Shown here piece by piece: positions 175 to 8,969 of a stretch of 64,000 nt of DNA. The notes under the pieces were generated by a model. The model saw nothing but the letters and a program-made list of their open reading frames with translations, was not told the DNA's origin and searched no databases. The translations under genes were made by a program, and so were the position numbers. This DNA comes from a virus (taxonomy: Duplodnaviria > Caudoviricetes), in IMG/VR virus record IMGVR_UViG_3300032335_001059, positions 22,814 through 86,813 of that record; one strand, written 5' to 3'. Positions within the stretch are counted from its first letter, which is position 1. Every line of letters begins with the position of its first letter.

Positions 175-179
175 CTCCT

Positions 180-875
180 AATCCTAAGCATGATGTAAAA
201 CTGCTTAATTAATGCACCACAACTCATGTGGATATAAAGACTTCTTAGTTTAGAGGAAACTGGGTTATTGCCTGTTAGTGTAACTCTTGTAAAATATCTA
301 AGATGTGAAACCACCTGATTATATAAATCTTGGTTTTGGAGTGATGTCCTAAAGGGTTAGAATCCCAATTACTCAGTATTAATCAGCTCCCAAGGATGAG
401 CAGTTGTAATAGAGACAACAAGTAGCATAAACAGGCAATAATGCGCTATTACAACTGAGTGCAGAATACTAATGCTAAATAGTATAAACTAGTTATACAT
501 AAAGTAATGTAAAGCCATTACAACACAATAAGATGTGTTCAGTTGTATAATGAATAACAACCTGCAAAGTCGTAAAACATTGACACGACTATAAATAATA
601 ATGTCAGATGTGAGTCTGAATGTGTTGTTCCCTTGAGAAAGGAATGTATTTGGAAAGAGTGCTAATAAACCACTACAACACAAATGAGTTCTCAGCAAGT
701 AGTTAACCAATAAACAGAAATGTTTAAATCTATATGGGTTTGGTGAAATCATATATTAACTACGTGACCCTACTCTTATATGTTCCAATAAGATTGAAGT
801 CTGATGGAAATCGTCAAACCGTAAAACGTAAAGATGGACTTAGAAAAGCTAAGTAAGAAAGAGAGTGCTAAACAA
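180..875 (+). ncRNA. Candidate large structured non-coding RNA
   Basis: About 740-nt gap with no credible ORF, packed with stems. Examples: taagca/tgctta, ccac/gtgg, aaacc/ggttt, cagttgtaatag(401-412)/ctattacaactg(446-457), gtataa/ttatac, gtaatg/cattac, aacaca/tgtgtt, agtcgt/acgact, tcaga/tctga, cttag/ctaag, actctt(772-777)/gagagt(861-866). Confidence 0.5.
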
Positions 876-917
876 AAATCAATTAAAGTCAATTAAAAAC
901 AATTAACAAACAAAACA

Positions 918-2607: not shown

Positions 2608-2985
2608 ATGAAAAACATACAATCAACACACGCAACATTTGAACAATCTAAATTGCTTAAAGAGAAAGGATTTAATATATCTTGTAAAGAAGGGTGGTAT
2701 GTAGCTCAATTAGACCCTTATAAAGGTCAATTATTTCCTGATGATACAGGAGGTAAACACGAAATAGAAAAACCAGAACAATGGCAAGTAGTTGAATGGT
2801 TAAGAGTTGAAAAGGGTATTTGGGTATGTGTAAATATAAACGGTTTAGATAAACTATTTACTTTTGATATTCATAACTACAAGCAAAAAGGTTGTTCGTT
2901 AGAGTCTATCCTCGATGGCGGGTTCATAACACCACAAGAAGCTTACTCAGCAGCATTTGATTACATTTTAAAAGAATTGATATGA
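2608..2985 (+). CDS. Hypothetical protein, paralog of 3799-4185
   Basis: Anchors FEQSKLLKEKGF / PEQWQVVEWLR / TPQEAYSAA. Confidence 0.75.
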   Translation: MKNIQSTHATFEQSKLLKEKGFNISCKEGWYVAQLDPYKGQLFPDDTGGKHEIEKPEQWQVVEWLRVEKGIWVCVNINGLDKLFTFDIHNYKQKGCSLESILDGGFITPQEAYSAAFDYILKELI

Positions 2986-3797
2986 AAAACATAAATTTGT
3001 TACCAACGGATAAACCAAGTAGGTTATGGTTGTATAAAAACTTTGATAATTTACTAACTGGATTAACAGTTGAAAAATCAAAAGATATTCATCCTCAACA
3101 CATCTACATCACTTCTGATGAAGAAATTAAAGAAGGGGATTGGGTTAAACTATTTGTGAAACACATAAATAAAGAATGGGTTCATAAAATAACCAAAGAA
3201 GATTTACTTTTATACTCTGATTTTAACAATGAAGGTTCTAAAATCACCCTAACAACAGACCAAAACTTAATCAAAGATGGTGTACAAGCTATTGATGATG
3301 AGTTTTTAGAATGGTTTGTTAAGAATCCAAGTTGTGAGAGTGTTGAGACTGATTTAGTTCCTGTAAATTATTTTGGTTCAGAAACTATAGTTAATAGTTA
3401 TGGGTTTTATAAATTTATTTACAAAATCATCATTCCACAAGAAGAACCTAAAAGAAAAATAGATACTTGTTATAATTTTAATATAGAAATTGGTTGTGTA
3501 CAAAATATTTGTAGATGTGAACAAGAAGAACCTAAACAAGAAACTATTGAAGAAGCCTTAAATTATCAACTTAATTTTATACACGATGTGGTTAGAAATA
3601 AAGATTTTGATTTAGGTTTTCAAACAGGTGGAATATTCGGTGCTAAATGGCAAGCAGAAAGAAGGTATAGTGAGGAAGAGGTTTATAAATTACTATTAAA
3701 ACATCAATCTGATTATAGAAGCTATGTAAGAAATTCATATCCGTTAACTTGGAGTTTTGATATTAAAGATTGGTTTGAAAAATATAAAAAGAAATAA
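2982..3797 (+). CDS. Modular hypothetical protein with an internal direct repeat
   Basis: 271 aa, ATGA-coupled; QEEPK occurs twice. Confidence 0.75.
   Translation: MKNINLLPTDKPSRLWLYKNFDNLLTGLTVEKSKDIHPQHIYITSDEEIKEGDWVKLFVKHINKEWVHKITKEDLLLYSDFNNEGSKITLTTDQNLIKDGVQAIDDEFLEWFVKNPSCESVETDLVPVNYFGSETIVNSYGFYKFIYKIIIPQEEPKRKIDTCYNFNIEIGCVQNICRCEQEEPKQETIEEALNYQLNFIHDVVRNKDFDLGFQTGGIFGAKWQAERRYSEEEVYKLLLKHQSDYRSYVRNSYPLTWSFDIKDWFEKYKKK
3437..3536 (+). repeat. 16-bp direct repeat acaagaagaacctaaa (3437-3452 and 3521-3536)
   Basis: Exact copies 84 bp apart, in frame. Confidence 0.9.
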
Positions 3798-3798
3798 T

Positions 3799-4185
3799 AT
3801 GGAAATAAAAAACGAGTTCATTCCATATGAACAAGCATTAGAGTTAAAACAACTTGGATTTGATGAACCTTGTTTGGCGCATTGGTATAATGAAACACCA
3901 ACAAACTCAGAAGGTCAGTGTCTTGTTTATTATAAAAAGCCTTGGGATAATCAAAAGATTATAAAAGGAGTTATCAGAGATTATTATTTTGCACCACTCT
4001 ACCAACAAGCATTTAGATGGTTTAGAGAGAAGTATGGTTACTTATCTAATATCCATGATTTTAATGGAAATTTTAAAGCTACTTTAAGTGGTAATTGTAA
4101 TTGGTTAGGAAGTTGGACAAAAACTTACGAAGAAGCAGAACTTGCTTGTTTAATTAAATTAATTGAAATAGTAAAAAATAAATGA
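3799..4185 (+). CDS. Hypothetical protein, paralog of 2608-2985
   Basis: Likely start ATG at 3799 (MEIKNEFIPYEQALELKQLGF); anchors PLYQQAFRWFR / TYEEAELAC. Confidence 0.75.
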   Translation: MEIKNEFIPYEQALELKQLGFDEPCLAHWYNETPTNSEGQCLVYYKKPWDNQKIIKGVIRDYYFAPLYQQAFRWFREKYGYLSNIHDFNGNFKATLSGNCNWLGSWTKTYEEAELACLIKLIEIVKNK

Positions 4186-4409
4186 AAGAAAAAAATCAAA
4201 AAAAAGTAGCTGGATTTATATGTATATTGTTTTTAGTAATAACAGTTATTATTGGTATAATAGCTGTTTCACCACAAATGTTAGGACTTAGATTTTATAC
4301 AATAGTTCAGTCAGTGTTATTATGGATTACAACTTTTGCATCATTAACAGTATGTTTTTTGTATGCAGAAGCTTGGTTTTCCTCTAATCATCATTATTTT
4401 GATGATTAA
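4182..4409 (+). CDS. Small membrane protein
   Basis: 75 aa, two TM-like segments, ATGA overlap. Confidence 0.7.
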   Translation: MKEKNQKKVAGFICILFLVITVIIGIIAVSPQMLGLRFYTIVQSVLLWITTFASLTVCFLYAEAWFSSNHHYFDD

Positions 4410-4414
4410 AAGAT

Positions 4415-4437
4415 AAACTAGGAGGACACTAGTTTTT
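4415..4437 (+). terminator. Intrinsic terminator
   Basis: aaactag/ctagttt stem with T tract after the stop of 4182-4409. Confidence 0.6.
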
Positions 4438-4517
4438 AATTTAAAATAAATAATAAAACAAAAAATCAAAAACTTAAAAAAAAGTGTTTGATTTGTCTAA
4501 TAATTTATAATTCACGG

Positions 4518-4549
4518 AAAAAGCATGGGTAGTCCACCATGCTTTTTTT
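4518..4549 (+). terminator. Intrinsic terminator
   Basis: aaaaagcatgg/ccatgcttttt 11-bp stem plus T tract. Confidence 0.7.
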
Positions 4550-4664
4550 AATTTTTACACACAAAACCTAAAAAAATATTGTTTTATTTCTATCAACTTA
4601 AAAGATACAATCTGGTATTTTAAATGAGTCAGATAAATAAACAATTAGATTAATTTCTAAAATT

Positions 4665-7989: not shown

Positions 7990-8143
7990 AGTCAGGTGGC
8001 GGAATGGTAGACGCTGATAATGGGTTTCTTTAAGAAAAACGATGGATACCAACTAAGTAGTGTTTTATGCCTTCGGGTATTGGGTCTTAATAAAGAAAAT
8101 TTGAAAATGGTTTTTCGTACAGGTTCGAATCCTGTCCTCGACC
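7990..8143 (+). ncRNA. tRNA-like RNA 1 with a ~104-nt insert in place of the anticodon/variable arms
   Basis: Acceptor agtcagg/cct(c)gac; D-arm gcg-gaatggtaga-cgc; canonical T-arm acagg-ttcgaat-cctgt (8119-8135); no anticodon stem-loop. Confidence 0.65.
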
Positions 8144-8156
8144 GAACAATGTGAAT

Positions 8157-8180
8157 GAGAGGTATAGAAATATATCTCTC
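8157..8180 (+). terminator. GNRA hairpin / terminator after tRNA-like RNA 1
   Basis: gagaggtata-gaaa-tatatctctc followed by T-rich sequence. Confidence 0.55.
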
Positions 8181-8184
8181 TTCT

Positions 8185-8216
8185 ATTGTTTTTTAAATAA
8201 AAGGTTCGTATATTTG
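8185..8216 (+). promoter_or_regulatory. Bacteroidota primary-sigma promoter for the HNH gene
   Basis: TTG (8186-8188), 20-nt spacer, TATATTTG (8209-8216) matching TAnnTTTG, 21 nt before the ATG. Confidence 0.65.
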
Positions 8217-8237
8217 TGACTACAAAATTATAAATAT

Positions 8238-8654
8238 ATGAAAAGGTTTTTTGACAAAATAGAAAAAACAGAAACTTGTTGGATATGGACAGCAGGTTGT
8301 AGGGGTAAATCAGGATATGGAGCGTTCAAATTAGCTGGCAAAGTAATAGATGCTCATAGAATATCTTATGAATTACATAATGGCATTATTCCTAAAGGAA
8401 TGTATGTATGTCATACTTGCGATAATAGAAAATGTGTTAATCCTAATCATTTATTTTTAGGAACAGCAAAAGAAAATCATCAAGATGCTGTTAATAAAGG
8501 TAGAATTATATTTGGATGGAATACTGAAAAATTAAAAAAACATCCAAGTAGAGGTGCTTATTTAAGAGGATGTAGATGTGATGAATGTAAAGCTATTAAC
8601 AATATGATATCTAAAAGATATAGGGCAAGTTTAAAAGCAAAAAAACTGTCCTGA
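8238..8654 (+). CDS. Free-standing HNH endonuclease with a C-terminal Cys motif
   Basis: CWIWT...GYGAF...AHRISY...[16 protein letters not shown]; tail [17 protein letters not shown]. Confidence 0.9.
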
Positions 8655-8673
8655 CAACTAAAAATAAAAAAAT

Positions 8674-8859
8674 ATGGGATTTTTATCAAACATGTTGAGT
8701 GCAACAGTTAAAACAGTTTTAACTCCAGTTGCGGTTGTAAAAGATGCAGTTAATGTAGTAACAGGTGAAGAAGCTGATGCTACTAAAAATTTATTTTCGT
8801 CGGCAGTTGAAGATGTCGAAGAAGGATTCGATGATTTAGGAGAAGGAGAACTCCTTTAA
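8674..8859 (+). CDS. Small amphipathic/acidic hypothetical protein
   Basis: 61-aa ORF between the RNA elements. Confidence 0.7.
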   Translation: MGFLSNMLSATVKTVLTPVAVVKDAVNVVTGEEADATKNLFSSAVEDVEEGFDDLGEGELL

Positions 8860-8864
8860 AAAAT

Positions 8865-8969
8865 AGTCAGGTGGTGTAAAAGTAACACATGGGTGACGTT
8901 TAACAGAGTATCATTAGTGACACTCTGTAAACAAAAAACCAAGCAACAGGCGCAGTACCTGTCCTGACA
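8865..8969 (+). ncRNA. tRNA-like RNA 2 with a long hairpin in place of the anticodon arm
   Basis: Acceptor gtcagg/cctgac identical to RNA 1; D-arm gtg-taaaagtaa-cac; T-stem acagg/cctgt with a non-canonical loop cgcagta; internal stem acagagt/actctgt. Confidence 0.55.

What the first reader, a model, noticed from the sequence alone, without database searches (positions are those of the whole stretch)
180..875. Candidate ~700-nt highly structured non-coding RNA
Seen: in an otherwise gene-dense genome, about 740 nt has no credible ORF but more than 15 hairpins. It includes nested multibranch domains (agtatt/aatact enclosing gctc/gagc and a perfect 12-bp stem at 401-457; actctt/gagagt enclosing 778-860). 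A motif recurs at domain ends: gagtgc at 458, gaaagagtgctaa at 653-665, gaaagagagtgctaa at 857-871. Known: large phage-associated ornate RNAs such as GOLLD and ROOL fall in this size class. I cannot assign a family by eye.
Basis: partly seen in the sequence, partly recalled or inferred. Interest (0 to 1): 0.72.

Follow-up and report, generated by a model that had tools for sequence, protein, structure and literature searches.

The report
Two phage RNA modules, not one
The gene-free 740 bases are not one giant RNA: they hold a cut-short copy of a twister-type self-cutting RNA, a short hairpin filler, and an intact member of a widespread, uncatalogued, knotted phage RNA family whose job is unknown.

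Summary
Window 175-917 has no credible ORF, has higher G+C than its flanks, and folds better on the + strand. The reading as one ~700-nt GOLLD/ROOL-like RNA does not hold. The stretch has three parts.

(1) 186-469: a twister-type element of a family with at least 112 phage members. It has UAA, P2, P4 around a UCCCAAGG loop, a 12-bp P5 and a 159-nt inserted arm. Where 86 of 98 relatives read GAGGG[A/G/T], the window alone reads GAAUAC. It therefore lacks the pseudoknot partner and the 3' strand of P1, and is probably inactive.

(2) 490-568: three hairpins, shared with only three related contigs.

(3) 568-871: an intact member of a ~255-520-nt pseudoknotted RNA family with at least 128 distinct phage copies. 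Covariation is strong: 91.8% of cells paired against 80.5% in shuffles, with 0 of 500 shuffles as high. The family is absent from Rfam 15. It lies on the same strand as nearby phage tRNA or tmRNA genes. Its copy in Cellulophaga phage phi14:2 lies in what is most likely one of two abundant, stable "long non-coding RNAs" reported there.

Function is unknown. Earlier follow-ups in this scan found both families on other DNA.

The parts
186..207 (+). Hairpin AAGCA/TGCTT just after the stop of ORF 1-174. It is the optional 5' hairpin of the twister-type unit and may also act as a terminator or stabiliser.
   Evidence: Sequence. The block 182-249 is conserved at 84-87% in family-2 members L204, L170 and L255.
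210..212 (+). U-A-A, the 5' strand of twister loop L1. The predicted cleavage site is between U210 and A211.
   Evidence: TAA precedes P2 in 45 of 62 family-2 members with both ends found. The twister cleavage dinucleotide is N-A.
213..463 (+). Body of the twister-type element. P2 is TGCAC 213-217 with GTGCA 459-463. P4 is CTCA 223-226 with TGAG 397-400. L4 is TCCCAAGG 388-395. The inserted arm is 227-385 (GTGG 228-231 with CCAC 311-314; TGATTA 316-321 with TAATCA 380-385). P5 is the 12-bp stem 401-412 with 446-457.
   Evidence: At least 112 unique family members. P4 appears in at least 9 fully complementary versions and P5 covaries. The stems of the inserted arm covary in L270 and L219. The P4+L4 consensus of twisters is CCGGTCCCAAGCCCGG.
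464..469 (+). GAAUAC in the place of loop L1b (GAGGGR). The partner of the T1/PK2 pseudoknot and the 3' strand of P1 are missing, so this is a 3'-truncated copy.
   Evidence: L1b is GAGGG[A/G/T] in 86 of 98 relatives. The window is the only GAATAC. Sequence after 465 is unrelated to those relatives.
490..568 (+). Module B: three small hairpins (503-520, 522-539, 542-561). It may be a decayed fragment of a family-1 copy.
   Evidence: 89% identical to L042/L033. The 18-mer GTAATGTAAAGCCATTAC occurs in only 3 viral contigs. 512-528 repeats 667-683 at 88%.
568..871 (+). Intact member of uncatalogued phage RNA family 1, short form without H2 (~304 nt).
   Evidence: All six core blocks are present with at most 1 mismatch, in the family order. 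The exact 20-mer at 683-702 occurs in 103 viral contig stretches. Covariation.
568..590 (+). H1: AGTCG/CGACT with the conserved loop UAAAACAUUGACA.
   Evidence: The loop TAAACATTGA is nearly invariant, and the stem varies (GGT/ACC, GTCG/CGAC, CTC/GAG and others).
604..619 (+). H3: TCAGA/TCTGA capped by a GUGA (GNRA) tetraloop closed by U.G.
   Evidence: All 6 H3 pairs show changes on both sides, and 99.2% of cells are paired.
620..682 (+). H4 (TGTGTTG 621-627 with CAACACA 676-682). It encloses H5 (TTCC 628-631 with GGAA 641-644, loop CUUGAGAAA) and the variable arm V2.
   Evidence: All 7 H4 pairs and all 4 H5 pairs show changes on both sides; 98.1% and 98.9% of cells are paired. One alternative H4 form is ACGTGAGT/ACTCACGT.
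634..694 (+). Pseudoknot: UGAGAA (634-639, in the H5 loop) with UUCUCA (689-694, in junction J4/6).
   Evidence: Three compensatory variants: CGAGA/TCTCG in L120, TGAAAA/TTTTCA in L126, TGAGCA/TGCTCA in L151. Four further U.G variants fit the pairing. About 5 single mismatches also occur.
683..705 (+). Junction J4/6 AAUGAGUUCUCAGCAAG, the most conserved block, followed by the 5' strand of H6 (GTAGTTA 699-705).
757..871 (+). 3' strand of H6 (TAACTAC 757-763), then GUG, then the 3' domain. The 3' domain is closed by ACCCT 767-771 with AGAGT 862-866 (one C.A mismatch in the window). It holds the variable arm V4 and ends in the tail GCUAA 867-871.
   Evidence: H6 and H7 are 92-97% paired but almost invariant. 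The register of the inner helix is ambiguous.

Best explanation
The interval is the leader or spacer at the start of the rightward (early) gene arm of an 86.8-kb marine crAss-like phage. It carries two unrelated RNA modules side by side, with filler between them.

Module 1 (186-469) belongs to a very widespread phage family that has the layout and key bases of the twister self-cleaving ribozyme, enlarged by a P5 hairpin and, in this copy, a 159-nt arm inserted into L4. In intact relatives it would cut after the U of UAA and separate the upstream message from what follows. That step is inferred. The window copy ends right after P2. It has no GGG to pair with the CCC of L4 and no 3' strand of P1, so it is most likely a dead relic of recombination.

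Module 2 (568-871) is an intact gene for a compact RNA of about 300 nt. It has five or six helices around highly conserved junctions and a hairpin-loop pseudoknot. The family is found almost only in phages, and where tRNA or tmRNA genes lie near, they are on its strand. It is most likely made as part of the early transcript, trimmed, and accumulates as a stable trans-acting RNA, as the phi14:2 transcript does.

Shown here: the families, their structures and their genomic context. Inferred: processing, stability in this phage, and any function. My best guess for function is about 25%: an RNA scaffold or ribozyme acting on the translation or RNA-processing machinery during host take-over. The confidence of 0.8 is for the identity of the parts, not for the function.
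For: Phage identity:
- The window holds virion RNA polymerase-size ORFs.
- The only named relative is Cellulophaga phage phi14:2, Crassvirales.
- The stretch lies two small ORFs after the divergent switch of the genome.

Family 1:
- 103 viral contig stretches hold the exact 20-mer and 105 hold a second anchor. There are 128 distinct copies.
- Only 3 of 185,579 species genomes hold the 20-mer, all of them MAG contigs.
- On 22 sequences, 91.8% of cells are paired against 80.5% in shuffles and 34-45% with slid partners. 28 of 55 pairs change on both sides. 0 of 500 shuffles reach any measure.
- On 98 sequences, 90.9% of cells are paired.
- G.U pairs occur on the + strand only.
- Every tRNA or tmRNA within 1 kb is on the same strand: 38 of 124 loci, with a tmRNA in 18.
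- The phi14:2 copy lies at 2907-3385. The phi14:2 paper reports two long intergenic regions transcribed rightward, above most genes and stable late in infection.

Family 2: with twister features taken.
Against: - No transcript data exist for this phage.
- The match between the paper's 'g004-g005 junction' and phi14:2 2905-3589 rests on my reading of a gene numbering I could not see.
- The 573-872 fold is not better than shuffles (z = -1.5).
- H6, H7 and most of the pseudoknot are nearly invariant, so they are supported by conservation rather than covariation.
- No protein partner recurs nearby: the best family is in 18 of about 124 loci.
- This genome has no tRNA or tmRNA that ARAGORN finds, so the link to translation is weak here.
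- Rfam twister models do not score family 2 at all.
- L4 reads GG where twisters read GC.
- Self-cleavage is untested.
Confidence: 0.8

Rival explanations
1. One ~700-nt ornate RNA of the GOLLD/ROOL size class, folding as a whole.
For: The whole stretch has z = -6.7. The MFE model draws long-range pairs across 230-700. The stretch is gene-free. Within the family, tRNA genes are often near, as reported for GOLLD and ROOL (my recollection of Weinberg et al. 2009 and 2017).
Against: There is no Rfam match. The closest relatives swap 214-489 for unrelated sequence while keeping 567-1384 at 88%. Each module occurs alone in over 100 contigs. The z-score rests on only 20 shuffles.
Confidence: 0.04
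2. Family 1 is a cis-acting leader (a riboswitch-like or protein-binding element) that controls the ORF or RNA gene downstream, not a trans-acting RNA.
For: It always lies on the strand of, and a short way upstream of, the next gene. In the window it ends 47 nt before the ATG at 918, and in L013 about 35 nt before an ATG. Its conserved junctions and pseudoknot resemble ligand-binding cores.
Against: Downstream partners are unrelated to one another: a tmRNA, a tRNA or diverse ORFs, with no recurring family. Tandem copies exist (L101, L113). In phi14:2 the RNA stays abundant while early messages fall.
Confidence: 0.12
3. Family 1 is itself a ribozyme of a new or unrecognised class, for example one that processes the phage's RNA-gene transcripts.
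For: It has very strongly conserved unpaired junctions, a pseudoknot, a GNRA loop and freely swapped peripheral arms, which is typical of ribozyme cores. It lies among genes whose transcripts need processing. Ribozymes in these phages escape Rfam.
Against: I could recognise no known catalytic core (hammerhead, twister, pistol, hatchet, HDV, group I) by eye, and Rfam finds none. No cleavage site can be inferred. The comparison by eye rests on memory.
Confidence: 0.15
4. The conservation reflects a DNA-level element (a replication origin, packaging site or recombination hotspot), or a hidden coding region read in another genetic code.
For: The stretch is a clear recombination hotspot with swapped modules. 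crAss-like phages can recode stop codons.
Against: Conservation comes as perfect 20-32-nt blocks next to unalignable inserts, with no third-base pattern. Compensatory changes keep helices. G.U pairs work on one strand only. Orientation relative to tRNA and tmRNA genes is strict. The phi14:2 region is transcribed.
Confidence: 0.03

Closest known systems
Abundant 'long non-coding RNA' of Cellulophaga crAss-like phage phi14:2 (g004-g005 junction; bioRxiv 10.1101/2020.03.07.982082)
   Same: phi14:2 2907-3385 is a family-1 member that shares all core blocks with window 568-871. It has the same place near the start of the early arm and the same strand.
   Different: The paper reports only transcription level and timing. 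It gives no sequence family, structure or function. The phi14:2 copy is longer (~475 nt, with H2 and an extra arm). The identification of the junction is my inference.
Twister self-cleaving ribozyme, type P1 with optional P5 (reviewed in PMC5408937; CHiTA survey 10.1101/2024.07.11.603121)
   Same: Family 2 has the same order of parts: (P1) - U^AA - P2 - L2 - P4 with L4 - P5 - P2' - GAGGG - (P1'). L4 reads UCCCAAGG against the consensus UCCCAAGC. A CCC/GGG pseudoknot is possible. A guanine sits at the general-base position.
   Different: Rfam twister models give no score. L4 ends GG, not GC, so the second pseudoknot would be CC/GG and is unproven. P5 is always present and long. Many copies carry a large arm inside L4. 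The window copy lacks the GGG strand and the 3' strand of P1.
GOLLD and ROOL large phage-associated RNAs
   Same: They are structured RNAs of unknown function, carried by phages and often next to tRNA genes (from memory). Their peripheral arms are variable.
   Different: There is no sequence or structure match to the Rfam models. Family 1 is about half their size.
Stable 'species 1 and 2' RNAs encoded in the tRNA gene cluster of phage T4 (from memory)
   Same: They are small stable phage RNAs of unknown function, co-located and co-oriented with phage tRNA genes.
   Different: No sequence relation was tested. They are much smaller and simpler RNAs. This is an analogy of context only.

Membership tests
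Uncatalogued phage RNA family 1 (defined here) | Six conserved blocks in fixed order: H1 loop TAAACATTGA, H5 loop CTTGAGAAAG, J4/6 GAGTTCTCAGCAAGTAG, ACTACGTGACCC, and the 3' end GGGTGCTAA (J2/3 is optional in short forms). | tested here: met
   The window matches at 574, 632, 686, 759 and 863 with 0-1 mismatch each. J2/3 is absent, as in the other short forms L019, L095 and L162.
Uncatalogued phage RNA family 1 (defined here) | Helices H1, H3 (GNRA-capped), H4, H5, H6 and H7 can form. | tested here: met
   All form in the window. H3 is capped by GUGA. H7 has one C.A mismatch (sequence). Family statistics.
Uncatalogued phage RNA family 1 (defined here) | Pseudoknot between the H5 loop and J4/6. 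| tested here: met
   UGAGAA 634-639 pairs with UUCUCA 689-694 as a perfect 6 bp. The family shows 3 compensatory variants.
Twister ribozyme | P1-P2-P4 topology, with the cleavage dinucleotide N-A in L1 next to P1. | tested here: inconclusive
   P2, P4 and UAA are present. P1 is short in the family (0-8 bp). Its 3' strand is absent in the window.
Twister ribozyme | L4 with conserved U, CCC(A), A and a two-base bulge (consensus UCCCAAGC). | tested here: met
   Window 388-395 reads TCCCAAGG, which is 7 of 8 identical. It is nearly invariant across members with at least 9 different P4 stems.
Twister ribozyme | T1/PK2 pseudoknot: CCC of L4 with GRG/GGG in the 3' strand of L1. | tested here: not met
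   86 of 98 relatives read GAGGG[A/G/T]. The window reads GAAUAC. Pseudoknot defects are poorly tolerated.
Twister ribozyme | T2/PK1 pseudoknot: two L4 bases with 'NC' of L2. | tested here: inconclusive
   GG 394-395 could pair with CC 217-218, but both are invariant, so there is no covariation.
Twister ribozyme | Site-specific self-cleavage. | not testable with these tools
   This needs an in vitro assay.
Twister ribozyme | Match to the curated covariance models (Rfam twister families). | tested here: not met
   No twister hit at E <= 10 in window 175-575 or in L164.
GOLLD / ROOL | Match to the Rfam covariance models. | tested here: not met
   No hit at gathering score in the window or in 11 related loci, and none at E <= 10 in 1-1500.
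tRNA / tmRNA | Cloverleaf or tmRNA fold detected by ARAGORN or Rfam. | tested here: not met
   There are 0 genes in the window and in the whole genome. There are no Rfam hits.

The most novel reading that the evidence does not exclude
Family 1 is a new functional class of phage RNA, used by many unrelated aquatic phages to take over or protect the host's translation or RNA-processing machinery. It could be a ribozyme, or the RNA core of a particle or self-assembling complex as in ROOL and GOLLD. Its frequent placement directly before phage tmRNA genes would then be a functional link.
Probability: 0.3. Interest if true: 0.85.

Novelty: new variant of a known kind. Interest (0 to 1): 0.6.

Why it matters
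Family 1 is a strongly conserved, pseudoknotted RNA of about 300 nt. It is carried by well over a hundred unrelated phage contigs, 4-270 kb in length. It is missing from Rfam 15, and I found it in no paper searched other than as an unexplained abundant transcript of one cultured phage. That phage, phi14:2, grows on Cellulophaga baltica, and its public RNA-seq data (GSE133609) already exist. The function of a new widespread phage RNA is therefore directly testable.

The 5' half adds to evidence that enlarged twister-type elements, invisible to standard RNA catalogues, are common in phage early regions. It also shows that they decay by recombination.

For genome annotation, the case shows that 'ornate giant RNA' candidates in phages can be chains of small independent RNA modules.

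Tried and rejected
- Rfam at gathering score and at E <= 10 on the window, on L001, on L164 and on 11 related loci found only tRNA and tmRNA genes elsewhere.
- ARAGORN found nothing in the window or the genome.
- BLAST against 50,697 cultured phage records found only phi14:2.
- A repeated promoter-like or terminator-like motif AGAGTGCTAA is no more frequent than chance.
- A second, diverged family-1 copy in 175-572 does not exist: none of the six core blocks is there.
- A constant protein partner was not found: clustering 1,228 neighbouring ORFs gave none, and the top clusters are SPFH, VRR-NUC, an exonuclease and unknowns.
- A closing helix between the H1 loop (CAUU) and the 3' GGUG, predicted by RNAalifold, is contradicted by GGGTACTAA and GGGTTCTAA variants without compensation. 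It is left open.
I used anchored MAFFT alignments and pair counts instead.
- Supplements of the two most relevant papers are not held.
- Literature searches for a description of either family in phages found none.

Full report
**Setting.** The window is bases 22814-86813 of an 86.8-kb IMG/VR virus record estimated 99% complete. It carries ORFs of 3560 and 2058 aa of virion RNA polymerase size on the minus strand. Its only named relative is Cellulophaga phage phi14:2, order Crassvirales. In the whole record, genes run leftward up to about 21.9 kb and rightward from 22.3 kb. The finding therefore lies two small ORFs into the rightward arm.

**Observation.**
- No credible ORF lies between the stop at 174 and the ATG at 918.
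- G+C is 0.30-0.36 against 0.19-0.27 just downstream.
- The + strand folds with z = -6.7 (20 shuffles) and the - strand with z = -2.4.
- Split in two, the signal is modest: 175-572 z = -2.7 and 573-872 z = -1.5.
- The 12-bp perfect stem at 401-412/446-457 is real.
- Rfam 15 gives nothing at gathering score, or at E <= 10. ARAGORN finds nothing.

**Family 1 (568-871): how it was found.**
- Alignment with phi14:2 showed perfectly conserved blocks of 20-32 nt separated by unalignable inserts.
- The 20-mer AATGAGTTCTCAGCAAGTAG (window 683-702) occurs exactly in 103 viral contig stretches, from contigs of 4-270 kb.
- It occurs in only 3 of 185,579 species genomes, all MAG contigs.
- A second anchor, ACTACGTGACCCTAC, gave 105 stretches (a few of the new ones are coding false hits) and brought in members that vary in the first block.
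- In all there are 128 distinct copies, 255-520 nt long from H1 to the 3' end.

**Family 1: architecture, 5' to 3'.**
- H1, with the conserved loop UAAACAUUGA.
- An optional H2 that encloses a variable arm.
- Junction AUAAAGAUAC.
- H3, capped by a GNRA loop or replaced by a branched arm.
- H4, which encloses H5 (loop CUUGAGAAA) and a variable arm.
- Junction AAUGAGUUCUCAGCAAG.
- H6, with a variable arm.
- GUG.
- A 3' domain closed by ACCCU/AGGGU, with a variable arm.
- The tail GCUAA.

**Family 1: support for the structure.**
- On 22 sequences, 91.8% of 1109 cells are paired, against 80.5% in shuffles and 34-45% with slid partners.
- 28 of 55 pairs change on both sides, and 0 of 500 shuffles reach any measure.
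- On 98 sequences, 90.9% of cells are paired.
- H3, H4 and H5 carry most of the covariation. H6, H7 and the pseudoknot are nearly invariant.
- The pseudoknot UGAGAA/UUCUCA has three compensatory variants (L120, L126, L151) and four U.G variants, against about five single mismatches.
- Variable arms are shuffled between otherwise different members.
- The window copy is a short form without H2. It has every core block, a GUGA-capped H3 and one C.A mismatch in H7.

**Family 1: context.**
- ARAGORN finds a tRNA or tmRNA within 1 kb in 38 of 124 loci, always on the same strand.
- A tmRNA is present in 18 loci, often 5-150 nt downstream. Rfam confirms a tmRNA next to the copy in L003.
- No protein family recurs within 3 kb.
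- A phage whose homologue of ORF 918-1385 is 49% identical has no RNA there (L163), so the RNA is an accessory module.

[quoted passage not shown] It calls them long non-coding RNAs of unknown function. phi14:2 has two such long gaps there. One is 2905-3589, which holds the family-1 copy. The other is 4102-4601, which holds a tmRNA-like gene. The match is my inference, because I could not see the gene numbering.

**Family 2 (186-469): how it was found.** Earlier notes of this scan pointed to enlarged twister-type RNAs in crAss-like phages, so I tested for one here.
- A 14-mer from the hairpin at 385-400 gave mostly chance hits. About ten of them shared four collinear blocks with window 182-465.
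- There are 112 unique members from the first of these anchors alone.

**Family 2: consensus and comparison with twister.**
- The short-form consensus reads: UAA, UGCAC, CAUNN, a P4 stem, U, UCCCAAGG, the P4 partner, C, a P5 hairpin, A, GUGCA, GAGGG(R).
- P4 appears in at least nine perfectly complementary versions, and P5 covaries.
- This is the order of a type-P1 twister.
- L4 matches the published P4+L4 consensus CCGGTCCCAAGCCCGG in 7 of 8 loop bases.
- GAGGG supplies both the general-base G and the GRG strand of the pseudoknot.

**Family 2: the window copy.** All parts up to P2 are present, together with a 159-nt arm inserted into L4 whose stems covary in L270 and L219. After GUGCA, however, the window reads GAAUAC. 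86 of 98 relatives read GAGGG[A/G/T], and the window is the only such exception. Downstream sequence is unrelated to those relatives. The copy is therefore cut off at its 3' edge. Because pseudoknots and catalytic residues are the parts of twisters that tolerate defects least, it is probably inactive.

**Between the modules.** Bases 490-568 form three hairpins shared only with L042/L162, L033 and L164. Bases 512-528 repeat 667-683 at 88%, which suggests a decayed fragment of another family-1 copy. The two families are single-copy in this genome. They share a locus in only 4 other cases, 1.7-4 kb apart, so their adjacency here is incidental.

**Verdict.** The stretch is real structured-RNA territory, but it is a chain of modules rather than one giant RNA. 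The intact module belongs to an uncatalogued, widespread phage RNA family of unknown function. The other is a truncated variant of a known ribozyme class. Earlier follow-ups in this scan reached the same reading for both families on other DNA. I reproduced the evidence independently here.

Noticed in passing
L001 (phi14:2) 4031-4502: A tmRNA-like gene scores 46 bits, just under Rfam's 47-bit cut-off, and ARAGORN calls it a tmRNA. It fills the second long intergenic region of phi14:2, so it probably explains the paper's second 'long non-coding RNA'.
   Followed up: partly
L003, L023, L025, L026, L091, L104, L124: just upstream of family 1: A conserved ~45-nt hairpin element (AGCTAAGCTGTGTAAAGCG...AGAAGCT) recurs directly 5' of family-1 copies. 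Two other recurrent blocks (AGTGGTCTTACATCCAC... and CTACAAGAAGTGTTATGTTTGTTGAGTA...) also appear upstream in several loci. They may be further small RNA modules.
   Followed up: no
L164, oriented (reverse-complement) positions 2160-2260 and 2410-2500: These are mini versions of family 2 that keep only P2 and P5 (GCAC-AA-AGTTGTAAT...ATTACAACT-GA-GTGC) and lack P4 and L4. They look like decay products or a separate small element.
   Followed up: no
L075, L091, L092, L061, L073 (arm V3 of family 1): An identical ~50-nt arm (AATCAGGTGTGAGTTCAGTAATCCTCCC...GGAGGTAAT) sits in members that differ in their other arms. Peripheral arms are therefore exchanged by recombination.
   Followed up: partly
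L002, L015, L096, L099 flanks; compare window 7990-8969: tRNA-shaped elements that start AGTCAGGTGGCGGAATGG and end GGTTCGAATCCTGTCCTGACTAC abut family-1 copies. ARAGORN often misses them, so the count of tRNA neighbours is an underestimate.
   Followed up: no
L123 and L161, inside junction J4/6: A ~35-nt two-hairpin insert splits AAUGAG from UUCUCAGCAAG in two members. The junction therefore tolerates an insertion at that point.
   Followed up: no
L110, L149, L157, L112, L113: A subfamily of family 1 has a different, shorter 5' domain. It has no UAAACAUUGA hairpin, and its H5 loop reads GUAUGAGAUA. Its 3' half is the same.
   Followed up: no
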